From the NCBI GenBank assembly GCA_038087875.1, contig CM075991.1:8558001-8622000 (forward strand): a stretch of 64,000 nt of DNA. Direction: 5' to 3'. Both the position numbers and the translations under genes were made by a program. This document shows positions 1 to 57,700 of the stretch, piece by piece; the first letter of the stretch is position 1; the number at the start of each line of letters is the position of its first letter. The stretch is from Malacoraja senta. Lineage: Eukaryota. Below the pieces are notes generated by a model. It saw nothing but the letters and a program-made list of their open reading frames with translations, made no database searches and was not told the DNA's origin.

Positions 1-268
1 TGAGGAGGAATTTCTTTAGTCAGAGGGTGGTGAATCTGTGGAATTCATTGCCACTGGCGGCTGTGGAGGCCAAGTCTATATATACTTTTAAGGCGGAGAT
101 TGACTCTTGATTAATAAGGGCATCAGGGGTTACGGGGAGAAGGCAGGAGAATGGGGTTGGGAGGGGAAGATGTGTCAGCCATGATTGAATGGCGGAGTAG
201 ACTTGATGGGCTAATTCTGCTCCTAGAACTTATGAATTATTGTGACGGAGTTACAATCGAGGGTCTCC

Positions 269-413
269 TTCTTCCTCCTCTTGCGTATGGCGTGCACAGC
301 CTAAAGTTGTAGGACAACCTGTTCTATTTGATCTTATTTGATTGTGCACGCCGGGTTGATTGCATTCGTCGAAACAGGGCGGACCACGTGAAGGTTGCAA
401 TCTCCCACCCCAA
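269..413 (-). mobile_element. Short non-autonomous retroelement with HDV-like ribozyme head and (AAG)n tail, copy 1
   Basis: Near-identical to 19647-19773 and 34258-34400. Ends ...GCCATACGCAAGAGGAGGAAGAAGG. Confidence 0.8.
358..411 (-). ncRNA. Minimal HDV-like ribozyme fold (54 nt) at the 5' end of a short retroelement, copy 1 (intact)
   Basis: Reverse complement reads GGGGUGG(P1) GA GAUUGCA(P2) ACC(P3) UUCACGU(L3) GGU(P3') CCGCCCU(P1') G(P1.1) U-UUCG-A(P4) CGAA(J4/2) UGCAAUC(P2'). All helices pair. The G1-U wobble and the catalytic-C-containing CGAA match HDV/CPEB3 ribozyme topology. Activity untested. Confidence 0.75.
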
Positions 414-14620: not shown

Positions 14621-15598
14621 TGTAAACATAGTACTCCGTAAAAGCCATAATGAACAATAACAAACAAAAAAATGCAATAAATCATGGGAGGAATAGATCG
14701 GGTAGATGCACAGAGTCTCTTGCCCGGAGTAGGGGAATTGGGAACCAGAGGACATACGGTAGGTTTAAGGTCAGGGGGAAACAATTTAATAGGAATCTGA
14801 GGGTTAACTTTCTCACACAAAGGGTGGTGGGTGTGTGGAACAGGCTGCCAGAGGAGGTAGTTAAGGCTGGGACTATCCCAATGTTAAAGAAACAATTAGA
14901 CAGGTACAAGGATAGGACATGTTTGGAGGGATATGGACCCAATGCAGGCAGGTGGGACTAGTATAGTTGGCTGGTGTGGTCAAGTTGGGTCGAAGGGCCT
15001 GTTTCCATGCTGTATCACTCTATGACTCTAAATGTTCAGTATACATATATATAAGTGTGGTCTCAGTGGGCTGAAGAGCTTGTTTCCATGCTTTGTCTCC
15101 AAAATAAATTAAACAATGGAAGTTCCCTACTCAAACTCTGCACCGTTTTACTTCAGTGATGTTTGCCTGTGGCAAAACATTTGCTTTGTGTGTTGTTGGG
15201 GTTGCTGTTTACTGCTGCTGTGAATTGTTCACTTTGAACATGCCCTTGCATTTTGGCTCCATTGCCCGCTGGGCTGTGTTCGTGTTGGCCTAATATGGAC
15301 ACGGTGCTGAGACTGGTCGATTTCAGATGCGGGGCAAAGTGTGGGGGATTGACCAGCAAAGATATGTTCCTGTTGACGTCTGCCTAAAACCTCGTGGAAC
15401 ACCATGGAAGCTCGAGGGTCTGCCTGGTCTTACTTACGGCTTCCATTTATAATGCCACTATTGTCTATTTAAACACAAGGAACTGTAGATTCCGGTTTAC
15501 AAAAGAAGACTGGAGTAAATGCTGGAAAAGTGGCACAGTGGCGCAGCGGTAGAGTTGCTGTCTTACAGCGCCAGAGAACTAGGTTGTATCCCGACGAA

Positions 15599-18865: not shown

Positions 18866-19646
18866 ACAGAGAGTCAGGCGAGAGGGAGACACAAATTTAA
18901 GGAAGGGTAAGGTGTGAAAACAAGACATCAGAAGAGATGAGGTTCATGGAAAATGTGGAATAGATCATTGTTAGCGAGGAGAAGGTGTCAACAAAGCAAA
19001 CAGATCAAATGTAATCGGGGACAGTCATACTGGTTGGAGAACTATGATGGGGGTGGGATGGAGAGAGGGAAAACAAAGGTTGCTTGAAGTTAGAGAAGTC
19101 AATACCAAAGAAGGGTCTCGACCCAAAACGTCGCCCATTCCAACGCTCCAGAGATGCTGCCTGTCCCGCTGAGTTCATCCAGCATTTTCTGTCCATCCAC
19201 TGTCACAAATAATCGGCTCAGAATTTTGAAGCGCAGGAATGTTAAAAGAAAAGTCACCGAGCAATGAATCAATTTGCTCGATGTGCTTCCTGCATTCCTA
19301 ATGGGATAAGTCACCCTACTCACCAGCATATAATCTATCCGATACGGTTACGCTCTGGAGTAAAGCCTCCAGTTCAGTGTCACTTGTTCAATCTTCTGTT
19401 GCGGTTAACAAACTGTCTGCAAGGATCACCATTTTCTTCAGATAGCTGTGACAATAAAAGACCTTTGAACCGTTGAATCCAAATTCGTCCCAACAGAGCA
19501 GGAGACCGAGTGCATGGACTGGACTGGACTGGACTTTGAAAATGGCGCCAGAACCTGGCGACTCCAGCGTGGTGGTCTCAGTGGACAATTTCTGTACACC
19601 TTGCTAATCTGTATTTACGTGTGGCTATACTTTACTGAACTGTGTG

Positions 19647-19773
19647 TTGGGGCGGGAGATTGCAACCTTCACGAGGTCCGCCCTGTTTCGACGAATGCAC
19701 AATCAAACAAGATCAAACAGAACAAGTTGACCTACAACTTTCGGCTGTGCACGCCATACGCAAGAAGACGAGG
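19647..19773 (+). mobile_element. HDV-like-ribozyme-headed short retroelement, copy 2, with 13-bp TSD
   Basis: TSD ACTGAACTGTGTG at 19634-19646 and 19774-19786. P1 GGGGCGG/CCGCCCT starts at 19649. A short deletion between two TGCA motifs damages P2'. AAG-type tail. Confidence 0.85.
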
Positions 19774-20109
19774 ACTGAACTGTGTGCGAAAAAATAATTT
19801 TGCTGCGCATTCGTGCAAGTGACAACAAATGCAACGTGGACCATTGACCATTGAGTTGTACAAATCCTTCTTCATTGTCAAATATATGTTCACCCATCTC
19901 ACCACCCAGAAGGCCAAGGTCAGTGTGCATGGGGTAAGCCCACCACTTTCAAGTGACGTGGGAATATATTGCCAATCCTTTATTGTTGCTGGGTCTAGGT
20001 CTGGGAACCTTTCCCCAACAGCAGATGGATTGCAGCAACTAAAAGAGGTTGCTCAGCGCCGTCACCTCGAGCGATCTCGAACAGGCATTAAACGGTGGCC
20101 GCTCCTAGG

Positions 20110-26452: not shown

Positions 26453-26777
26453 CTCCCTGTTGGATTGCAACCTTGTCGTGGTCGGGGAGCTTGTGTGTCT
26501 CAGTGACCCCTAGAGCTATGCCAGCGGGAGATTCGTCTCCTGTTAGGGTCTCCCATGCTGGACAGGTGGAAGGGTAGAGGCGAGACGAAGAGCGATCCAC
26601 TGGTCCTCCAGGTTGGAGGTTGAGCACAGGGCTAACAACCCTGTCTCGTAAAACAAATATGTTACAGAAACAGCAACTGAAGGAATCAACACTACTGGCC
26701 GTGATGGACCCAGAACAGACAGGATTGGAGGACCTTCGTTGCTGCCCTACATGCCAGGAGGCATAATAGGCAGTATA
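26453..26777 (+). mobile_element. Bipartite (internally deleted) RTE-clade non-autonomous retroelement
   Basis: RTE-like 5' UTR (ACCTTGTCGTGGTCGGGGAGCTTG...) joined to an RTE-like ORF end (QNRQDWRTFVAALHARRHNRQ). TSD ACATTTAAT at 26444-26452 and 26778-26786. Confidence 0.75.
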
Positions 26778-31878: not shown

Positions 31879-34257
31879 ACCCGAAAAGTCACCTATTCCT
31901 TTTCTCCGGAGATGCTGTCTGGCCCGGTGGTTTACCCCAGCTTTTTGTGTCTATCTTTGGTTTCCTTCCCACACAGAATATGAATGTTGTCCCTTGAACT
32001 ACATTTGGCCTCATTGACTGCAAGATATAGTAATGGAAACGCCACCCTCCAGCCTATTGGGTCCATCATCACCCATTCACACTAGTTCTATATTATCCCA
32101 CTTTCTTACCCACTCCCAGCACATTTGGGAGTCATTTTACAGCAGCCTAGAAACCCACGTGTCCTTTGGGGATGTGGGAGGAAACCAGTGCACCCGGAGA
32201 AAATCCACGCGGTCACAGGAGAGAAGTGAAAACTGCACTCCGACAGCACCCGAGGTCAGGATCGAACCGGGGTCTCTGGCGCTGGAGGCAGCGGCTCTAC
32301 CGGCTGCGTCACTGTGCCGCCCAATGTAAACATGCAGGAAGACACAGGAAGTCGAAGTCAAAGTCAAATTTATGCACCAACGACGGTGCAGTGAAATAGA
32401 TTTGCCAGCAGCGATACACTTAGGAGATCAGAGGAGGGGCAAGAGCGGGGAATTAAAATGATGAAGAATAGCCCGAGATCTCCGTGGCTGCAAGACAGAT
32501 ATGCCTCCGAGCCACCAGAACATTAGAGAACCAGATGTTTATGTGGATAACATTATCACCTCCAGCTTTTAAACCATTAATTAATTGTATTCCGACAGGA
32601 GCTGTTGTGTGTTTTGAACGATTATCTCTGGGCCAGTTCTCCAATCCTTTGCATTACATGTCGAATTTCATAAAGTCACTCAGAGTCCAACATCCCATCT
32701 CGAACCGTTTGCACTGATGGGATTTGACCTTGCATCTCTACATCAGTAGCTCAGAACTCTGGCTGCCGGCTCAATGTGTGATGATGATGATGAAGCATGA
32801 TGCCACTGCACCTTGTATCTATACGGCTGTGTACAAAAACAGTGGTTCACCGATGAAAGACTTCACTGCCCACCATCTCCTTGTTCCCTCACCGTATGGA
32901 CATGAGTCGAAGTGTTTAATAAGTACTTGTCCCTCTCCGCACACACTGGGCTCTTGTCCAAACCTAACCTCCTTTATTAGTTGTAATAAATTGGCATGGG
33001 CACCAGTGAAGGAACAACAGCTGTCCAGGGGTAACAAATGATTCTTCTCTTTCTGGGGTTTGCTTTGAACAACTGGATCCAGCAACAGTAACCTGGCTTT
33101 ACCTCGCGCTGAACGTTATTCACTCCTCATGTATCTCTGCACTCGACTGTAATCGTGTATTTTCTTTCCGCTGACTGGATAGAACGCAACAAAAGCTTTT
33201 CACTGTACCTCGGTACACGTGACGAGAAAGGAAACTGAATAACCCCCAGTTTTCTCCACTCCTCTCGGCCCCGGTTTTACCAGCAGAAGCAGCGGCTGAG
33301 GGCCTGATTCCGGGAATTCACTCCTGGCATGGACATGCAGGGAATGGAGGAGTATGGATCACGTGGATATTTTTACGGCTGAGATGGACAAATTCTTCAT
33401 TAGAATGGGTGCCATGGTTTATGGGGAGAAGGCAGGAAAGTGGGATCCAGAGGCAGAGATCAGCCATGATTGAATGGCGGGGTAGACTCAATGGGCCGAA
33501 TGGCCTCATTCCACTCCCATGACTAGTGAACGCGCAGGCAGATGAAACCAGATTATCTTGGCGTCATGTTTGATACACATATTTTGGGGCCAATGGGCCT
33601 GTTCCAGTTCTGCACTTTTCTATGTTCCATGTTCCATGTTAAAACTCTCCTTGAAACCTATTCCTTTAACCAACCCGATGGTCATTTGAATCACATCTAA
33701 TTCCACTAAAGTCAAAAGTGTCTTATTGTCGTATGTCCCAGATAGAGGAATGAAATTCTTACTTGCAGCAGCCCAACACAATATGTAAACAATTTCATAA
33801 ACGAGAGAAAAATATATCTATATATATATATACACACACACAAACACAAACAAAGAATAATATTTCAAAAAGACAAACCAATGCCCCCGTCTATGTAGTT
33901 CGGAGCTTATTTGGAGGTTGTAGTGTTAATATCGCCTGATGGCTGTAAGGAAGAAGCTGATCATGAACCTGGACGTTACAGTTTTCAGGATCCTGTACCT
34001 TCTTCCCAATAGACATAGAGTGCTGGAGTAACCCAGCGGGTCAGGCAGCATCTCTGGAGAAGAGGAATAGGTGATGTTTCGGGTCGAGACCCTTCTCCAG
34101 ACTACAGAGATGCAGCCTGACCCGTTGAGTTACTCCAGCATTTTGTGTCTATCTTCGGTATAAAGTCGGGACCCTTCTTCAGTCACCCCCAGACGGTCTT
34201 CTACCCTGTCTAGACCCTTTCATTAAAAAAAGTCCCAGTGAGGACCCCTTTTCGCGC

Positions 34258-34400
34258 TTCTTCTCTTCTTGCGTATGGCGTGCACAGCCTAAAGTTGTGG
34301 GACAACTTGTTCTATTTGATCTTATTTCATTGTTCACGCCGGGTTGGTTGCATTCGTCAAAACAGAGCGGACCACGTGAAGGTTGCAATCTCCCCCCACC
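34258..34400 (-). mobile_element. HDV-like-ribozyme-headed short retroelement, copy 3 (diverged)
   Basis: Same body and AAGAAG tail, with substitutions in P1', P4 and P2' and an expanded G run at the 5' end. Confidence 0.8.
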
Positions 34401-34416
34401 CCCCCCCCCCTCTGCT

Positions 34417-35032
34417 GGTCCACTGGTCCACTGGTCCACTGGTCCACTGGTCCACTGGTTCACTGGTCCACTGGTCCACTGGTCCACAGGTCCACTGGTC
34501 CACAGGTCCACTGGTCCACTGGTCCACTGGTCCACAGGTCCACTGGTTCACTGGTCCACTGGTTCACTGGTTCACTGGTCCACTGGTCCACTGGTCCACT
34601 GGTTCACTGGTCCACAGGTCCACTGGTTCACTGGTCCACTGGTTCACTGGTTCACTGGTCCACTGGTCCACTGGTCCACTGGTCCACAGGTCCACTGGTC
34701 CACTGGTTCACTGGTTCACTGGTCCACTGGTCCACAGGTCCACTGGTCCACTGGTTCACTGGTCCACTGGTCCACAGGTCCACTGGTTCACTGGTCCACT
34801 GGTCCACTGGTTCACTGGTCCACTGGTCCACAGGTCCACTGGTTCACTGGTCCACTAGTCCACAGGCCCACTGGTCCACTGGTCCACTGGTCCACAGGTC
34901 CACTGGTTCACTGGTTCACTGGTCCACTGGTTCACTGGTTCACTGGTTCACTGGTCCACTGGTTCACTGGTCCACTGGTTCACTGGTCCACTGGTCTACT
35001 GATCCACTGGTCCACTGATCCACTGGTCCACT
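34417..35032. repeat. 8-bp tandem repeat (GGTCCACT, variants GGTTCACT/GGTCCACA), 77 units
   Basis: 616 bp divided by 8 gives 77 units. It explains the WSTGPLVH ORFs. Confidence 0.95.
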
Positions 35033-55710: not shown

Positions 55711-57700
55711 GGGTTTTCTCTCTTTATGTATTGTATCTCTCTATGGTACATCTGATGTGTTTAGATAGCATGCAAAACACAGCTTATCTCAGTACATATG
55801 ACAATAATAAATCTCATCCTGAACCCGATCCTAAATCCTTGGTCAATTGACTGACCGAGACACCCAATCCATACTTAAATTCCCTTTCTTTTCTAATCGC
55901 TCAAAAAAAGTCAGTCGGCCATACAAAGAAAGGATTGTTTATTTTGCCTCACATCCTGAGGACATGTCACATCGATGACAAATTATTTTTCTGTTGGGTT
56001 TACCAATAATAAGATGGATTAATTAAATCCACAAGGATGCTTCACTTTTAGCATTGATAATTGGACATGCCAATGGAGATAAATAGATTTACTAGGTCAA
56101 TGACCGGGGGGGGCAAAGATGTAGGTAATTGGTAGAGGGATTAGAGGGACCTTGTTGTAGAGGTGATTAATTATGGTGTGTATAAGAGTTAAGGCCTGCT
56201 GTCAGGGCCGCAGATTGAAAGATTGCGATTGTTTCCGTTGCAATATTATGGCAGGCTGATTCAGTGTGAGTTTCACTTCAGTTTCGTTTGTTGTCACGTG
56301 TACCGAGGTACAGTGAAAAGCTTTTGTCGCGTGCTCTCCAGTCAGCAGAAAGACAACGCATGATTACAAGCGAGCCACACAGTGGGCAGTGCATTACAGT
56401 TGCCGTGAGGGGGAATTGGGGGGGGGGGGGGGGAGAAGAACAATGGACAATTGTGGCGGGGAGGGGGGGGGAGAACAAAAGATGGAGCAGGCGTGCTTTG
56501 TAACTTTGTCAGTGCCGTACGTGGCTGCTATTTGTATACGTTGGGTACGCAGCACAGAATCTCACTAAAGGATTCCGTACATTGACAGTACTGTACAAGG
56601 GAATAACGTTTAGTGCGAGGTAAGGCCAGCAAAGTCCGATCAAGGAGAGTCCGAGGGTCACCAAAGTGGTCGACAATAGCTCAGCACTGCTCTCTGGTAG
56701 TGGATTCTGTTAGCAAAGACGCTGCCTCAGTGACACGGGTTCGATCCTGACCTCGGGTGCTGTCTGTGTGGAGTTTGCACGTTCTCAATAGACAATAGAC
56801 AATAGGTGCAGGAGCAGGCCATTTGGCCCTTCGTGCCAGCACCGCCATTCACTGCGATCATGGCTGATCATCCCCAATCAGTACCCCGTTCCTGCCTTCT
56901 CCCCATATCCCCTGACTCCGCTATTTTTAAGAGCCCTATCTAGCTCTCTCTTGAAAGCACCCAGAGAACCTGCCTCCACCGCCCTCTGAGGCAGAGAATT
57001 CCACAGACTCACCACTCTCTGTGAGAAAAAGTGTTTCCTCGTCTCCGTTCTAAATGGCGTACTCCTGATTCTTAAACTGTGTGGCCCCTGGTTCTGGACT
57101 CCCCCAACATCGGGAACATGTTTCCTGCCTCTAGCGTGTCCTTAACAATCTTATATGTTTCAATGAGTTCTCTCTGTGACGTTGTGGGTTGCCTCTGGGT
57201 GTATCTGTTTACTCCCGCAACCCAAAGATGCGGATTTATGGGTTAATTGACCTCAGTAAATTGACTCTGACTCGATGACAAGCCCACACAGGGTGTTTGT
57301 GTATACATTGAAAGAACAATGGGTGGCACAGTGGCACAGCTGGTAAAGCTACTGCCTCATAGCACCAGAGAGTTCAATCCTCATCTTGGATGCTGTCTAT
57401 GTGGAGTTTGCATGTTCTCCATCCGATCACCCCCGGGTTTCCACTGGGTCTCCGGTTTCTTCCCACATCCCAAAGATGTGCAGATTTGTAGGTTAATTGG
57501 CCTCTGTAAATTGCCGATAGAGGTTGGTCAAAGGACAAAGGACATTTATTGTCACAATACACCAATTGGTGCAGTGAAATTTGAGTTGCCATTGCAGCAC
57601 ACCAATAAAAATTAAAAAAAACATTAGAGAATTTAACATTAAACATAAAAACATCACCCCACAATGGTTCCCACTGTGAGGGGATGCAGCAAAGTCCAGT

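What the first reader, a model, noticed from the sequence alone, without database searches (positions are those of the whole stretch)
19634..19786. A 13-bp TSD fixes the element boundary two bases upstream of the predicted cleavage site
Seen: ACTGAACTGTGTG flanks copy 2 on both sides, so the insert is TT+GGGGCGG...AAGAAGACGAGG. Copy 1 also has TT just before G1. This supports mobilisation as a unit by target-primed reverse transcription, with the 5' end essentially at the ribozyme start. The shared TT is unexplained: it could be non-templated addition by RT, or the transposed RNA may not be the cleaved product. This copy has also lost part of P2' by a deletion between two TGCA motifs.
Basis: seen in the sequence. 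Interest (0 to 1): 0.7.

Follow-up and report, generated by a model that had tools for sequence, protein, structure and literature searches.

The report
Tiny ribozyme-headed retroposon, ordinary insertion scar
This is one copy of a very common 140-base jumping element, probably in a shark or skate, that begins at the predicted cut site of a self-cleaving RNA; the two extra T bases in front of it are most likely added at this one insertion and are not a conserved leader.

Summary
The 13-bp target-site duplication (TSD), the TT and the 16-nt deletion are real. The element is a high-copy, about 140-nt non-coding retroposon: a P4-less HDV/CPEB3-type ribozyme fold, a 3' stem and an (AAG)n tail. TT is not a family feature. 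A third copy in the window has a G run instead. In contigs of four public runs the best-supported 5' junctions lie at G1 (343 contigs) or one T upstream (313), with unrelated flanks; no TT row is among the 24 rows shown, and 460 rows are hidden. This excludes a conserved leader. T at -1 is about 1.5-2 times enriched. Best reading: a self-cleaved RNA is inserted by target-primed reverse transcription, and one or two non-templated dA on the cDNA end read as T or TT, as described for Drosophila R2. The deletion is not shared by the family; it weakens P2 and also removes one arm of the 3' stem. The element works like SIDE, NARTc and bipartite Vingi/RTE elements. Its partner LINE, cleavage and expression are untested.

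The parts
19634..19646 (+). left TSD, 13 bp
19647..19648 (+). TT: extra bases between TSD and G1. Not in the right TSD, which is followed by CG. Inferred non-templated addition
   Evidence: junction classes
19649..19699 (+). P4-less HDV-like ribozyme fold. P1 19649-55/19678-84 (G1-U wobble); J1/2 19656-57; P2 5' strand 19658-64; P3 19665-67/19675-77; L3 19668-74 (last base A here, T in copies 1 and 3); one-pair P1.1 C19670-G19685; short loop to 19691; predicted catalytic C19692; P2 3' remnant 19696-99. Predicted cut 5' of G19649
   Evidence: descriptor scan; coordinates; sub-threshold Rfam HDV match for copy 1 (20 bits against a cut-off of 50); no match for copy 2
19699..19700 (+). junction of a 16-nt deletion between two TGCA motifs; removes the end of P2' and the 5' arm of the 3' stem
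   Evidence: 702 contigs in four runs carry the missing bases
19700..19761 (+). 3' body with inner hairpin and the orphaned 3' arm of the stem (about 19745-55); candidate LINE-protein recognition region (inferred)
19762..19773 (+). tail: four AAG units with two substitutions
   Evidence: 778 contigs leave the reference behind 19768 and continue with AAG units
19774..19786 (+). right TSD, 13 bp
19570..19633 (+). left part of the older host repeat into which copy 2 inserted; it continues after 19786
   Evidence: paralogous contigs and an element-free joint 19603->19774 in run X3; in-window paralog at 56281-56330 for the right part
267..411 (-). copy 1: full length, intact fold, TT at 412-413, no clear TSD
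34257..34402 (-). copy 3: full length, G run at the 5' end (G1 position ambiguous), no TT, no TSD found

Best explanation
Copy 2 is an insertion of a very abundant, about 140-nt non-autonomous non-LTR retroposon. Step 1 (inferred): copies are transcribed by read-through, and the HDV-like fold cuts 5' of G1, discarding upstream sequence. Step 2 (inferred): an APE-type LINE protein, Vingi about 0.55, RTE about 0.3, other about 0.15, binds the 3' stem and tail, nicks the target and reverse-transcribes the RNA to G1. Step 3 (inferred): the enzyme often adds one or a few untemplated nucleotides, mostly dA, to the cDNA end; where they are kept they read as T or TT between TSD and G1. Step 4 (shown): staggered cuts left a 13-bp TSD. 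The TT therefore belongs to this insertion, not to the element. The 16-nt deletion is not shared by the family and probably disabled this copy as a donor.
For: TSD. (AAG)n tail, and a longest terminal inverted match of only 5 nt. Summed contig depth rises from tens in the flanks to 10^5-10^6 inside the element in all 4 runs laid. 5' loose ends at G1: 72, 47, 113, 111 contigs; at T-G1: 54, 50, 102, 107; flank agreement 0.33-0.38, median loose length 189-255 nt. T at -1 makes up 43-52% of those two classes against 21-25% expected, and 33-40% after adding clipped classes. The right TSD is followed by CG; an element-free paralog and an in-window paralog go on the same way, so TT is not target sequence. 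L3 sits at nt 20-26 from G1, the same register as in the Vingi-2_Gav 5' end (supplement of PMC5786205) and as in mouse Cpeb3, whose primer is placed 18 nt from the cleavage site (PMC10919898). Precedent: where R2 cleaves at its own 5' end, junctions vary by non-templated bases made afresh at each insertion (PMC3774820 passages). R2 reverse transcriptase adds 1-5 nt and uses pyrimidines very poorly for this (PMC8594491 passages).
Against: Cleavage was not tested. Rfam matches are below threshold or absent. No partner LINE was found. One search shows 6 loose-end rows per run, hides 460, and gives no ranking rule, so the TT class is only bounded indirectly. One search does not pair 5' and 3' flanks, so T at -1 could be the last base of the TSD in many copies. 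Alignment clipping at the variable base 19653 can inflate the T class; I corrected for it only in X3 and X5. X1 and X2 are one study and organism, and X1 may be the window's own sample. The addition bias comes from an R2 enzyme in vitro, not from Vingi or RTE.
Confidence: 0.65

Rival explanations
1. Target-site or microhomology bias. The excess T at -1 is mostly target DNA (top-strand cut after T, or an added dA annealing to a target T). TT in copy 2 is then a rarer addition, or repair filler put in by a host polymerase.
For: The RTE-like element at 26453 has T at -1 as the last base of its 9-bp TSD. Microhomology priming is the published model for R2. PMC11331408 leaves open whether the R2 protein or a cellular polymerase adds extra bases.
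Against: In copy 2 itself TT is outside the TSD.
Confidence: 0.15
2. A subfamily is copied from an uncleaved RNA that starts 1-2 nt upstream of G1, from an internal promoter as in L1Tc Pr77, so T or TT is templated.
For: 2 of 3 window copies have TT; T at -1 is enriched; Pr77 is both promoter and ribozyme (PMC4035085 passages).
Against: 343 contigs start at G1 with no T, and 313 have T but not TT. Copy 3 has a G run. No leader consensus appears.
Confidence: 0.1
3. The TSD was 14-15 bp, and the left copy's last bases (C or CG) mutated to T or TT after insertion.
For: The copy is old: 7 mismatches in 113 aligned bases to copy 1, and contigs spanning both junctions exist in a second organism (records 17 and 24). 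CG is mutation-prone.
Against: It needs one non-CpG change plus an added T, or two adjacent changes, beside an otherwise perfect 13-bp match.
Confidence: 0.08
4. It is not a retroposon: a DNA-transposon MITE, a tRNA-SINE fragment or a chance duplication.
For: Copies 1 and 3 show no clear TSD.
Against: No terminal inverted repeat and no A/B-box pattern; no tRNA; tandem tail and discrete ends; the fold descriptor hit 0 times in 12 Markov controls.
Confidence: 0.02

Closest known systems
R2 SIDEs and R2/R1 hybrid SIDEs of Drosophila (PMC3414825, passages read)
   Same: Non-coding; HDV-like ribozyme at the exact 5' end joined to a LINE-type 3' end; 5' junctions differing by 0-2 non-templated bases are reported for R2 there; 14-bp TSD in the hybrids.
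   Different: Those are rDNA-specific; the R2 SIDE of D. willistoni is 529 bp with a large ribozyme. This element is dispersed, about 140 nt, P4-less, with an (AAG)n tail.
Bipartite non-autonomous LINEs of the Vingi, Ingi (RIME, NARTc) and RTE clades (PMC5786205, passages and supplement searches)
   Same: Short, ORF-less, begins at a ribozyme. Vingi 5' ends printed in the supplement start with a G run and share the L3 heptamer, the P1'-GT junction, the CGAA linker and the register from position 1.
   Different: P2 and P3 differ from the printed Vingi heads and instead match the RTE-like element at 26453 (19 of 21 nt). P4 is missing. The 3' end was not matched to any LINE. That paper does not discuss sharks (0 hits).
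Minimal (P4-less) HDV-like ribozymes: drz-Mtgn and theta (PMC10879173, passages)
   Same: Double pseudoknot without P4; catalytic C first in J4/2.
   Different: Reported as about 99% from phages, often behind tRNAs. Here it heads a vertebrate repeat.
Mammalian CPEB3 ribozyme (PMC10919898, passages)
   Same: Same L3 at the same distance from the cut.
   Different: CPEB3 is a single intronic, conserved locus. It has a P4 and a different P1-P3 (recalled). No Rfam CPEB3 match here.

Membership tests
non-autonomous non-LTR retroposon (SIDE/NARTc type) | flanked by a TSD | tested here: met
   13 bp for copy 2; none clear for copies 1 and 3
non-autonomous non-LTR retroposon (SIDE/NARTc type) | dispersed, many copies, discrete ends, no coding capacity | tested here: met
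   3 copies in 64 kb; 19798 contigs laid in 4 runs with sharp ends; 127-145 nt
non-autonomous non-LTR retroposon (SIDE/NARTc type) | 3' poly(A) or tandem tail, no terminal inverted repeats | tested here: met
   (AAG)n; longest inverted match 5 nt
non-autonomous non-LTR retroposon (SIDE/NARTc type) | 5' boundary at the ribozyme cut site | tested here: met
   dominant 5' loose ends at 19649 and 19648
non-autonomous non-LTR retroposon (SIDE/NARTc type) | 5' and 3' ends shared with an autonomous LINE | not testable with these tools
   no genome held; no hit in genome or viral contigs; no Pfam hit in 150 of 164 less-repetitive frames
HDV-like ribozyme | nested double pseudoknot: 7-bp P1, 3-bp P3, P2, P1.1 | tested here: met
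   3 of 3 copies; 0 hits in 12 Markov controls. The descriptor was written after I had seen the copies. In copy 2, P2 is weakened (-5.0 against -8.9 kcal/mol)
HDV-like ribozyme | catalytic C at the start of J4/2; G1 wobble | tested here: met
   C19692 and G19649-T19684; the same in copies 1 and 3
HDV-like ribozyme | Rfam model score at the gathering threshold | tested here: inconclusive
   copy 1: RF00094 20 bits against 50, RF02682 14 against 44; copy 2 none. The models are 74-89 nt and include a P4 region absent here
HDV-like ribozyme | self-cleavage 5' of G1, lost on C-to-U change | not testable with these tools
   needs an in vitro assay
Vingi-derived element | 5' end homologous to a Vingi 5' UTR | tested here: inconclusive
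   by-eye comparison with printed alignments: L3, P1' end and register shared, P2 and P3 not
Vingi-derived element | 3' end homologous to a Vingi 3' UTR | not testable with these tools
   Kojima 2011 not held; the 3' motif had 0 hits in the supplement searched
tRNA-derived SINE | tRNA-like head with A and B boxes | tested here: not met
animal retrozyme (hammerhead type) | hammerhead ribozyme, tandem repeats (from abstracts listed) | tested here: not met
   the fold is HDV type and copies are dispersed singles; one head-to-tail joint seen in X5

The most novel reading that the evidence does not exclude
A 140-nt vertebrate retroposon present in something like 10^4-10^5 copies is headed by a P4-less ribozyme, a form reported almost only from phages. 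It is mobilised by Vingi, whose 5' ends look like the CPEB3 ribozyme. CPEB3 would then be an exapted Vingi head. The family's thousands of 5' junctions would be an in vivo record of dA-biased non-templated addition by an APE-type LINE enzyme.
Probability: 0.3. Interest if true: 0.7.

Novelty: new member of a known kind. Interest (0 to 1): 0.4.

Why it matters
The family is of moderate interest. It is a very small ribozyme-headed retroposon with a minimal fold in a vertebrate, and it was not found in the papers searched. It offers thousands of natural 5' junctions for asking how APE-type LINEs finish integration. Vingi and RTE proteins are being developed for gene insertion, and junction analysis is named there as an open need (PMC13708176 passages). 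A tie to Vingi also bears on where the CPEB3 ribozyme came from.

Tried and rejected
Rfam at gathering scores: 0 matches in the window. Minimum-energy folding shows no signal (z between -0.39 and 0.86 for 5 of 5 stretches), as expected for a pseudoknot. The metagenome scan gave 1 locus, L001, a chance 20-mer inside a bacterial-looking ORF; rejected. Viral contigs: 0 and 0. Genome contigs: 0. No Pfam family in 150 of 164 less-repetitive reading frames, so no host gene or partner ORF was located. No RNA holder was listed; this is no evidence on expression. Table 3 lists no differences between 19631 and 19688, although both other window copies differ there; I take this to be a filter and drew nothing from it. 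TSDs for copies 1 and 3 were not found. Earlier scan notes had no look-alike stretch. Paper searches listed no paper on this family; Vingi with CPEB3 gave 0 papers, and the head motif gave 0 papers. Repbase, Dfam, Kojima 2011 and Ruminski 2011 could not be read, so the family may already be catalogued there. bioRxiv supplements were closed.

Full report
Setting. The window is a repeat-rich vertebrate stretch: 54% is masked by self-BLAST, and it holds CR1-like ORF ends. I read the repeats as the HE1/HER1 landscape of sharks and rays. That label is recalled: PMC3747384 lists HE1/HER1 for sharks and rays (passages), but no call matched sequences to them. No genome is held.

Observation. The 13-mer lies at 19634-19646 and 19774-19786 and nowhere else, even with one mismatch; 0 of 100 shuffles gave two matches. 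It is the best duplication around copy 2, leaving TT before G19649 and a 12-nt tail. Random placements gave 13 nt or more in 206 of 20000 trials. Both end motifs find three copies, not two. Copy 1 has TT but only a 6-nt exact duplication, a length reached in 5.6% of random trials. Copy 3 has a G run and no TT. The 16-nt deletion between two TGCA motifs is confirmed.

Anatomy. A descriptor for the HDV fold found all three copies plus one other element at 26453, and 0 hits in 12 Markov controls (written after I had seen the copies). The head is 59 nt in copy 1: 7-bp P1 with a G1-U wobble, 7-bp P2, 3-bp P3, 7-nt L3, one C-G pair for P1.1, no real P4, then the predicted catalytic C. Rfam gives only sub-threshold HDV matches for copy 1 and none for copy 2. 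L3 lies at nt 20-26 from G1. It lies at the same place in the Vingi-2_Gav 5' end printed in the supplement of PMC5786205. It also does so in mouse Cpeb3, where a primer holding that loop is said to start 18 nt from the cleavage site (PMC10919898). This supports G19649 as the cut position, by analogy only. After the head come a stem of 10 or more pairs enclosing an inner hairpin (-22.7 kcal/mol in copy 1) and an AAG tail. In copy 2 the deletion lowers the P2 duplex from -8.9 to -5.0 kcal/mol and removes the stem's 5' arm; the rest folds at -8.4. Copy 3's P2 is also weak (-4.2). There is no terminal inverted repeat, A/B box or tRNA.

I laid 4 of the 24 listed runs on 19545-19900 at 85% likeness: organisms A, A, B and C, 3 studies; X1 may be the window's own sample. 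19798 contigs were laid. Summed depth climbs from tens in the flanks to 10^5-10^6 within about 19649-19772; the tool warns this is not a copy number. Three copies in 64 kb would suggest 10^4-10^5 or more per genome, a rough extrapolation. 5' loose ends lie at 19649 in 72, 47, 113 and 111 contigs, and at 19648 in 54, 50, 102 and 107. The loose parts are long and unrelated (agreement 0.33-0.38). So at least 656 contigs lack TT, and there is no conserved leader. No row at 19647 is among the 24 shown. 460 rows are hidden and the ranking is not stated, but rows of 41 and 48 long-flank contigs were shown in X3 and X5, so the TT class is probably smaller than those. Other 5' rows shown were 19654 (54, X5) and 19657 (41 in X3, 48 in X5); these are clipped at internal variants, and the 19657 consensus again has T before the G run. 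At the 3' end 778 contigs leave behind 19768 with more AAG units. 702 contigs carry the 16 bases missing in copy 2, so the deletion is not a family trait.

T at -1. Among the 19648 and 19649 classes, T-G1 makes up 43-52% against 21-25% expected for 27-33% T. Adding the clipped classes as non-T still gives 33-40% (largest p 3e-4). Runs are not independent, and clipping bias is only partly corrected. The enrichment is about 1.5-2 fold. The data cannot say whether that T is usually outside the TSD (added) or inside it (target bias). For copy 2 it is outside: the right TSD is followed by CG. An element-free paralog of the host repeat in X3 matches 28 letters from 19774 on, and an in-window paralog continues likewise. 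X3 also holds contigs across the 5' junction (19572-19673, ungapped, 10 differences) and the 3' junction (19747-19900). I read these as the orthologous insertion in organism B, which would make it old; the two letters at 19647-48 in that contig are not shown.

Mechanism. Shown: TSD, tail, discrete ends at G1 or T-G1, fold potential. Inferred: read-through transcription, self-cleavage at G1, capture by an APE-type LINE protein, and addition of untemplated dA at the cDNA end. PMC3774820 (passages) reports that R2 elements cleaving at their own 5' end have variable junctions with non-templated bases, made anew at each insertion because cleavage removes them from the next template. PMC8594491 (passages) reports 1-5 nt additions by R2 reverse transcriptase and very poor use of pyrimidines, which would give T or C on the sense strand. 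PMC11331408 (passages) finds extra bases in only a minority of join events and leaves a cellular polymerase possible. Copy 3's G run does not fit purine addition to the cDNA and is unexplained; it abuts an 8-bp satellite. I give this account 0.65. Target or microhomology bias gets 0.15, a templated 1-2-nt leader 0.10, decay of a longer TSD 0.08, and not a retroposon 0.02. That the element is a ribozyme-headed non-autonomous retroposon I put above 0.9.

Comparison. It works like R2 SIDEs (PMC3414825, passages), NARTc and RIME (PMC4035085, passages), and the bipartite Vingi/RTE elements of PMC5786205 (passages and supplement searches). Membership in the general class is met on four features; the fifth, a shared autonomous partner, could not be tested. 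Vingi is favoured by L3, the P1'-GT junction, the C-G P1.1 and the G-run start. Against it, P2 and P3 match the RTE-like element at 26453 in 19 of 21 nt, whose 5' part resembles RTE-3_Crp and RTE-14_Lch in the same supplement. A hybrid origin is possible. That second element is a useful comparator: its 9-bp TSD abuts the predicted cut site with no extra base, and its P1.1 is reversed (G-C). P4-less folds are reported as about 99% from phages (PMC10879173, passages). PMC6765202 (passages) notes that HDV-like ribozymes with conserved downstream and varied upstream sequence were already seen in many genomes. All other papers were seen as search listings only.

Novelty and verdict. Ten paper searches listed nothing on this family. 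Repbase, Dfam and two key papers were out of reach, so it may be catalogued there. The flagged feature is real but ordinary, and the TT puzzle is best explained as a per-insertion addition. New member of a known kind; interest 0.4.

Noticed in passing
window 26453-26777 (+): A second ribozyme-headed element of about 325 nt: HDV-like fold with C at position 1, reversed P1.1 (G-C) and a long P4; 5' part like RTE 5' UTRs; a 9-bp TSD abuts the predicted cut site with no extra bases. Single copy in the window; likely a bipartite non-autonomous RTE.
   Followed up: partly
supplement of PMC5786205 and PMC10919898: The 5' end of Vingi-2_Gav matches a mouse Cpeb3 ribozyme primer in 14 of 15 bases at the same distance from position 1, and resembles the whole CPEB3 ribozyme (rest recalled). 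This suggests CPEB3 is an exapted Vingi head; 0 papers hold both words.
   Followed up: partly
window about 34415-35030: An 8-bp satellite array of about 600 bp directly upstream of copy 3, whose 5' end is a G run.
   Followed up: no
window 19648-19768, runs X1, X2, X5 (table 5c): One head-to-tail pair of elements with 7 bases between (X5), and a partial head followed 18 bases later by a new head (X1, X2); both restart at T-G1.
   Followed up: no
window 19689-19690: CpG decay in the short loop of the ribozyme: C>T about 2-11% and G>A about 4-19% of depth across the four runs, pointing to an old family. The predicted catalytic C is also in a CpG.
   Followed up: no
window 15238-15420 (+): A loose HDV-like descriptor hit that appears only with relaxed settings; probably chance.
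   Followed up: no
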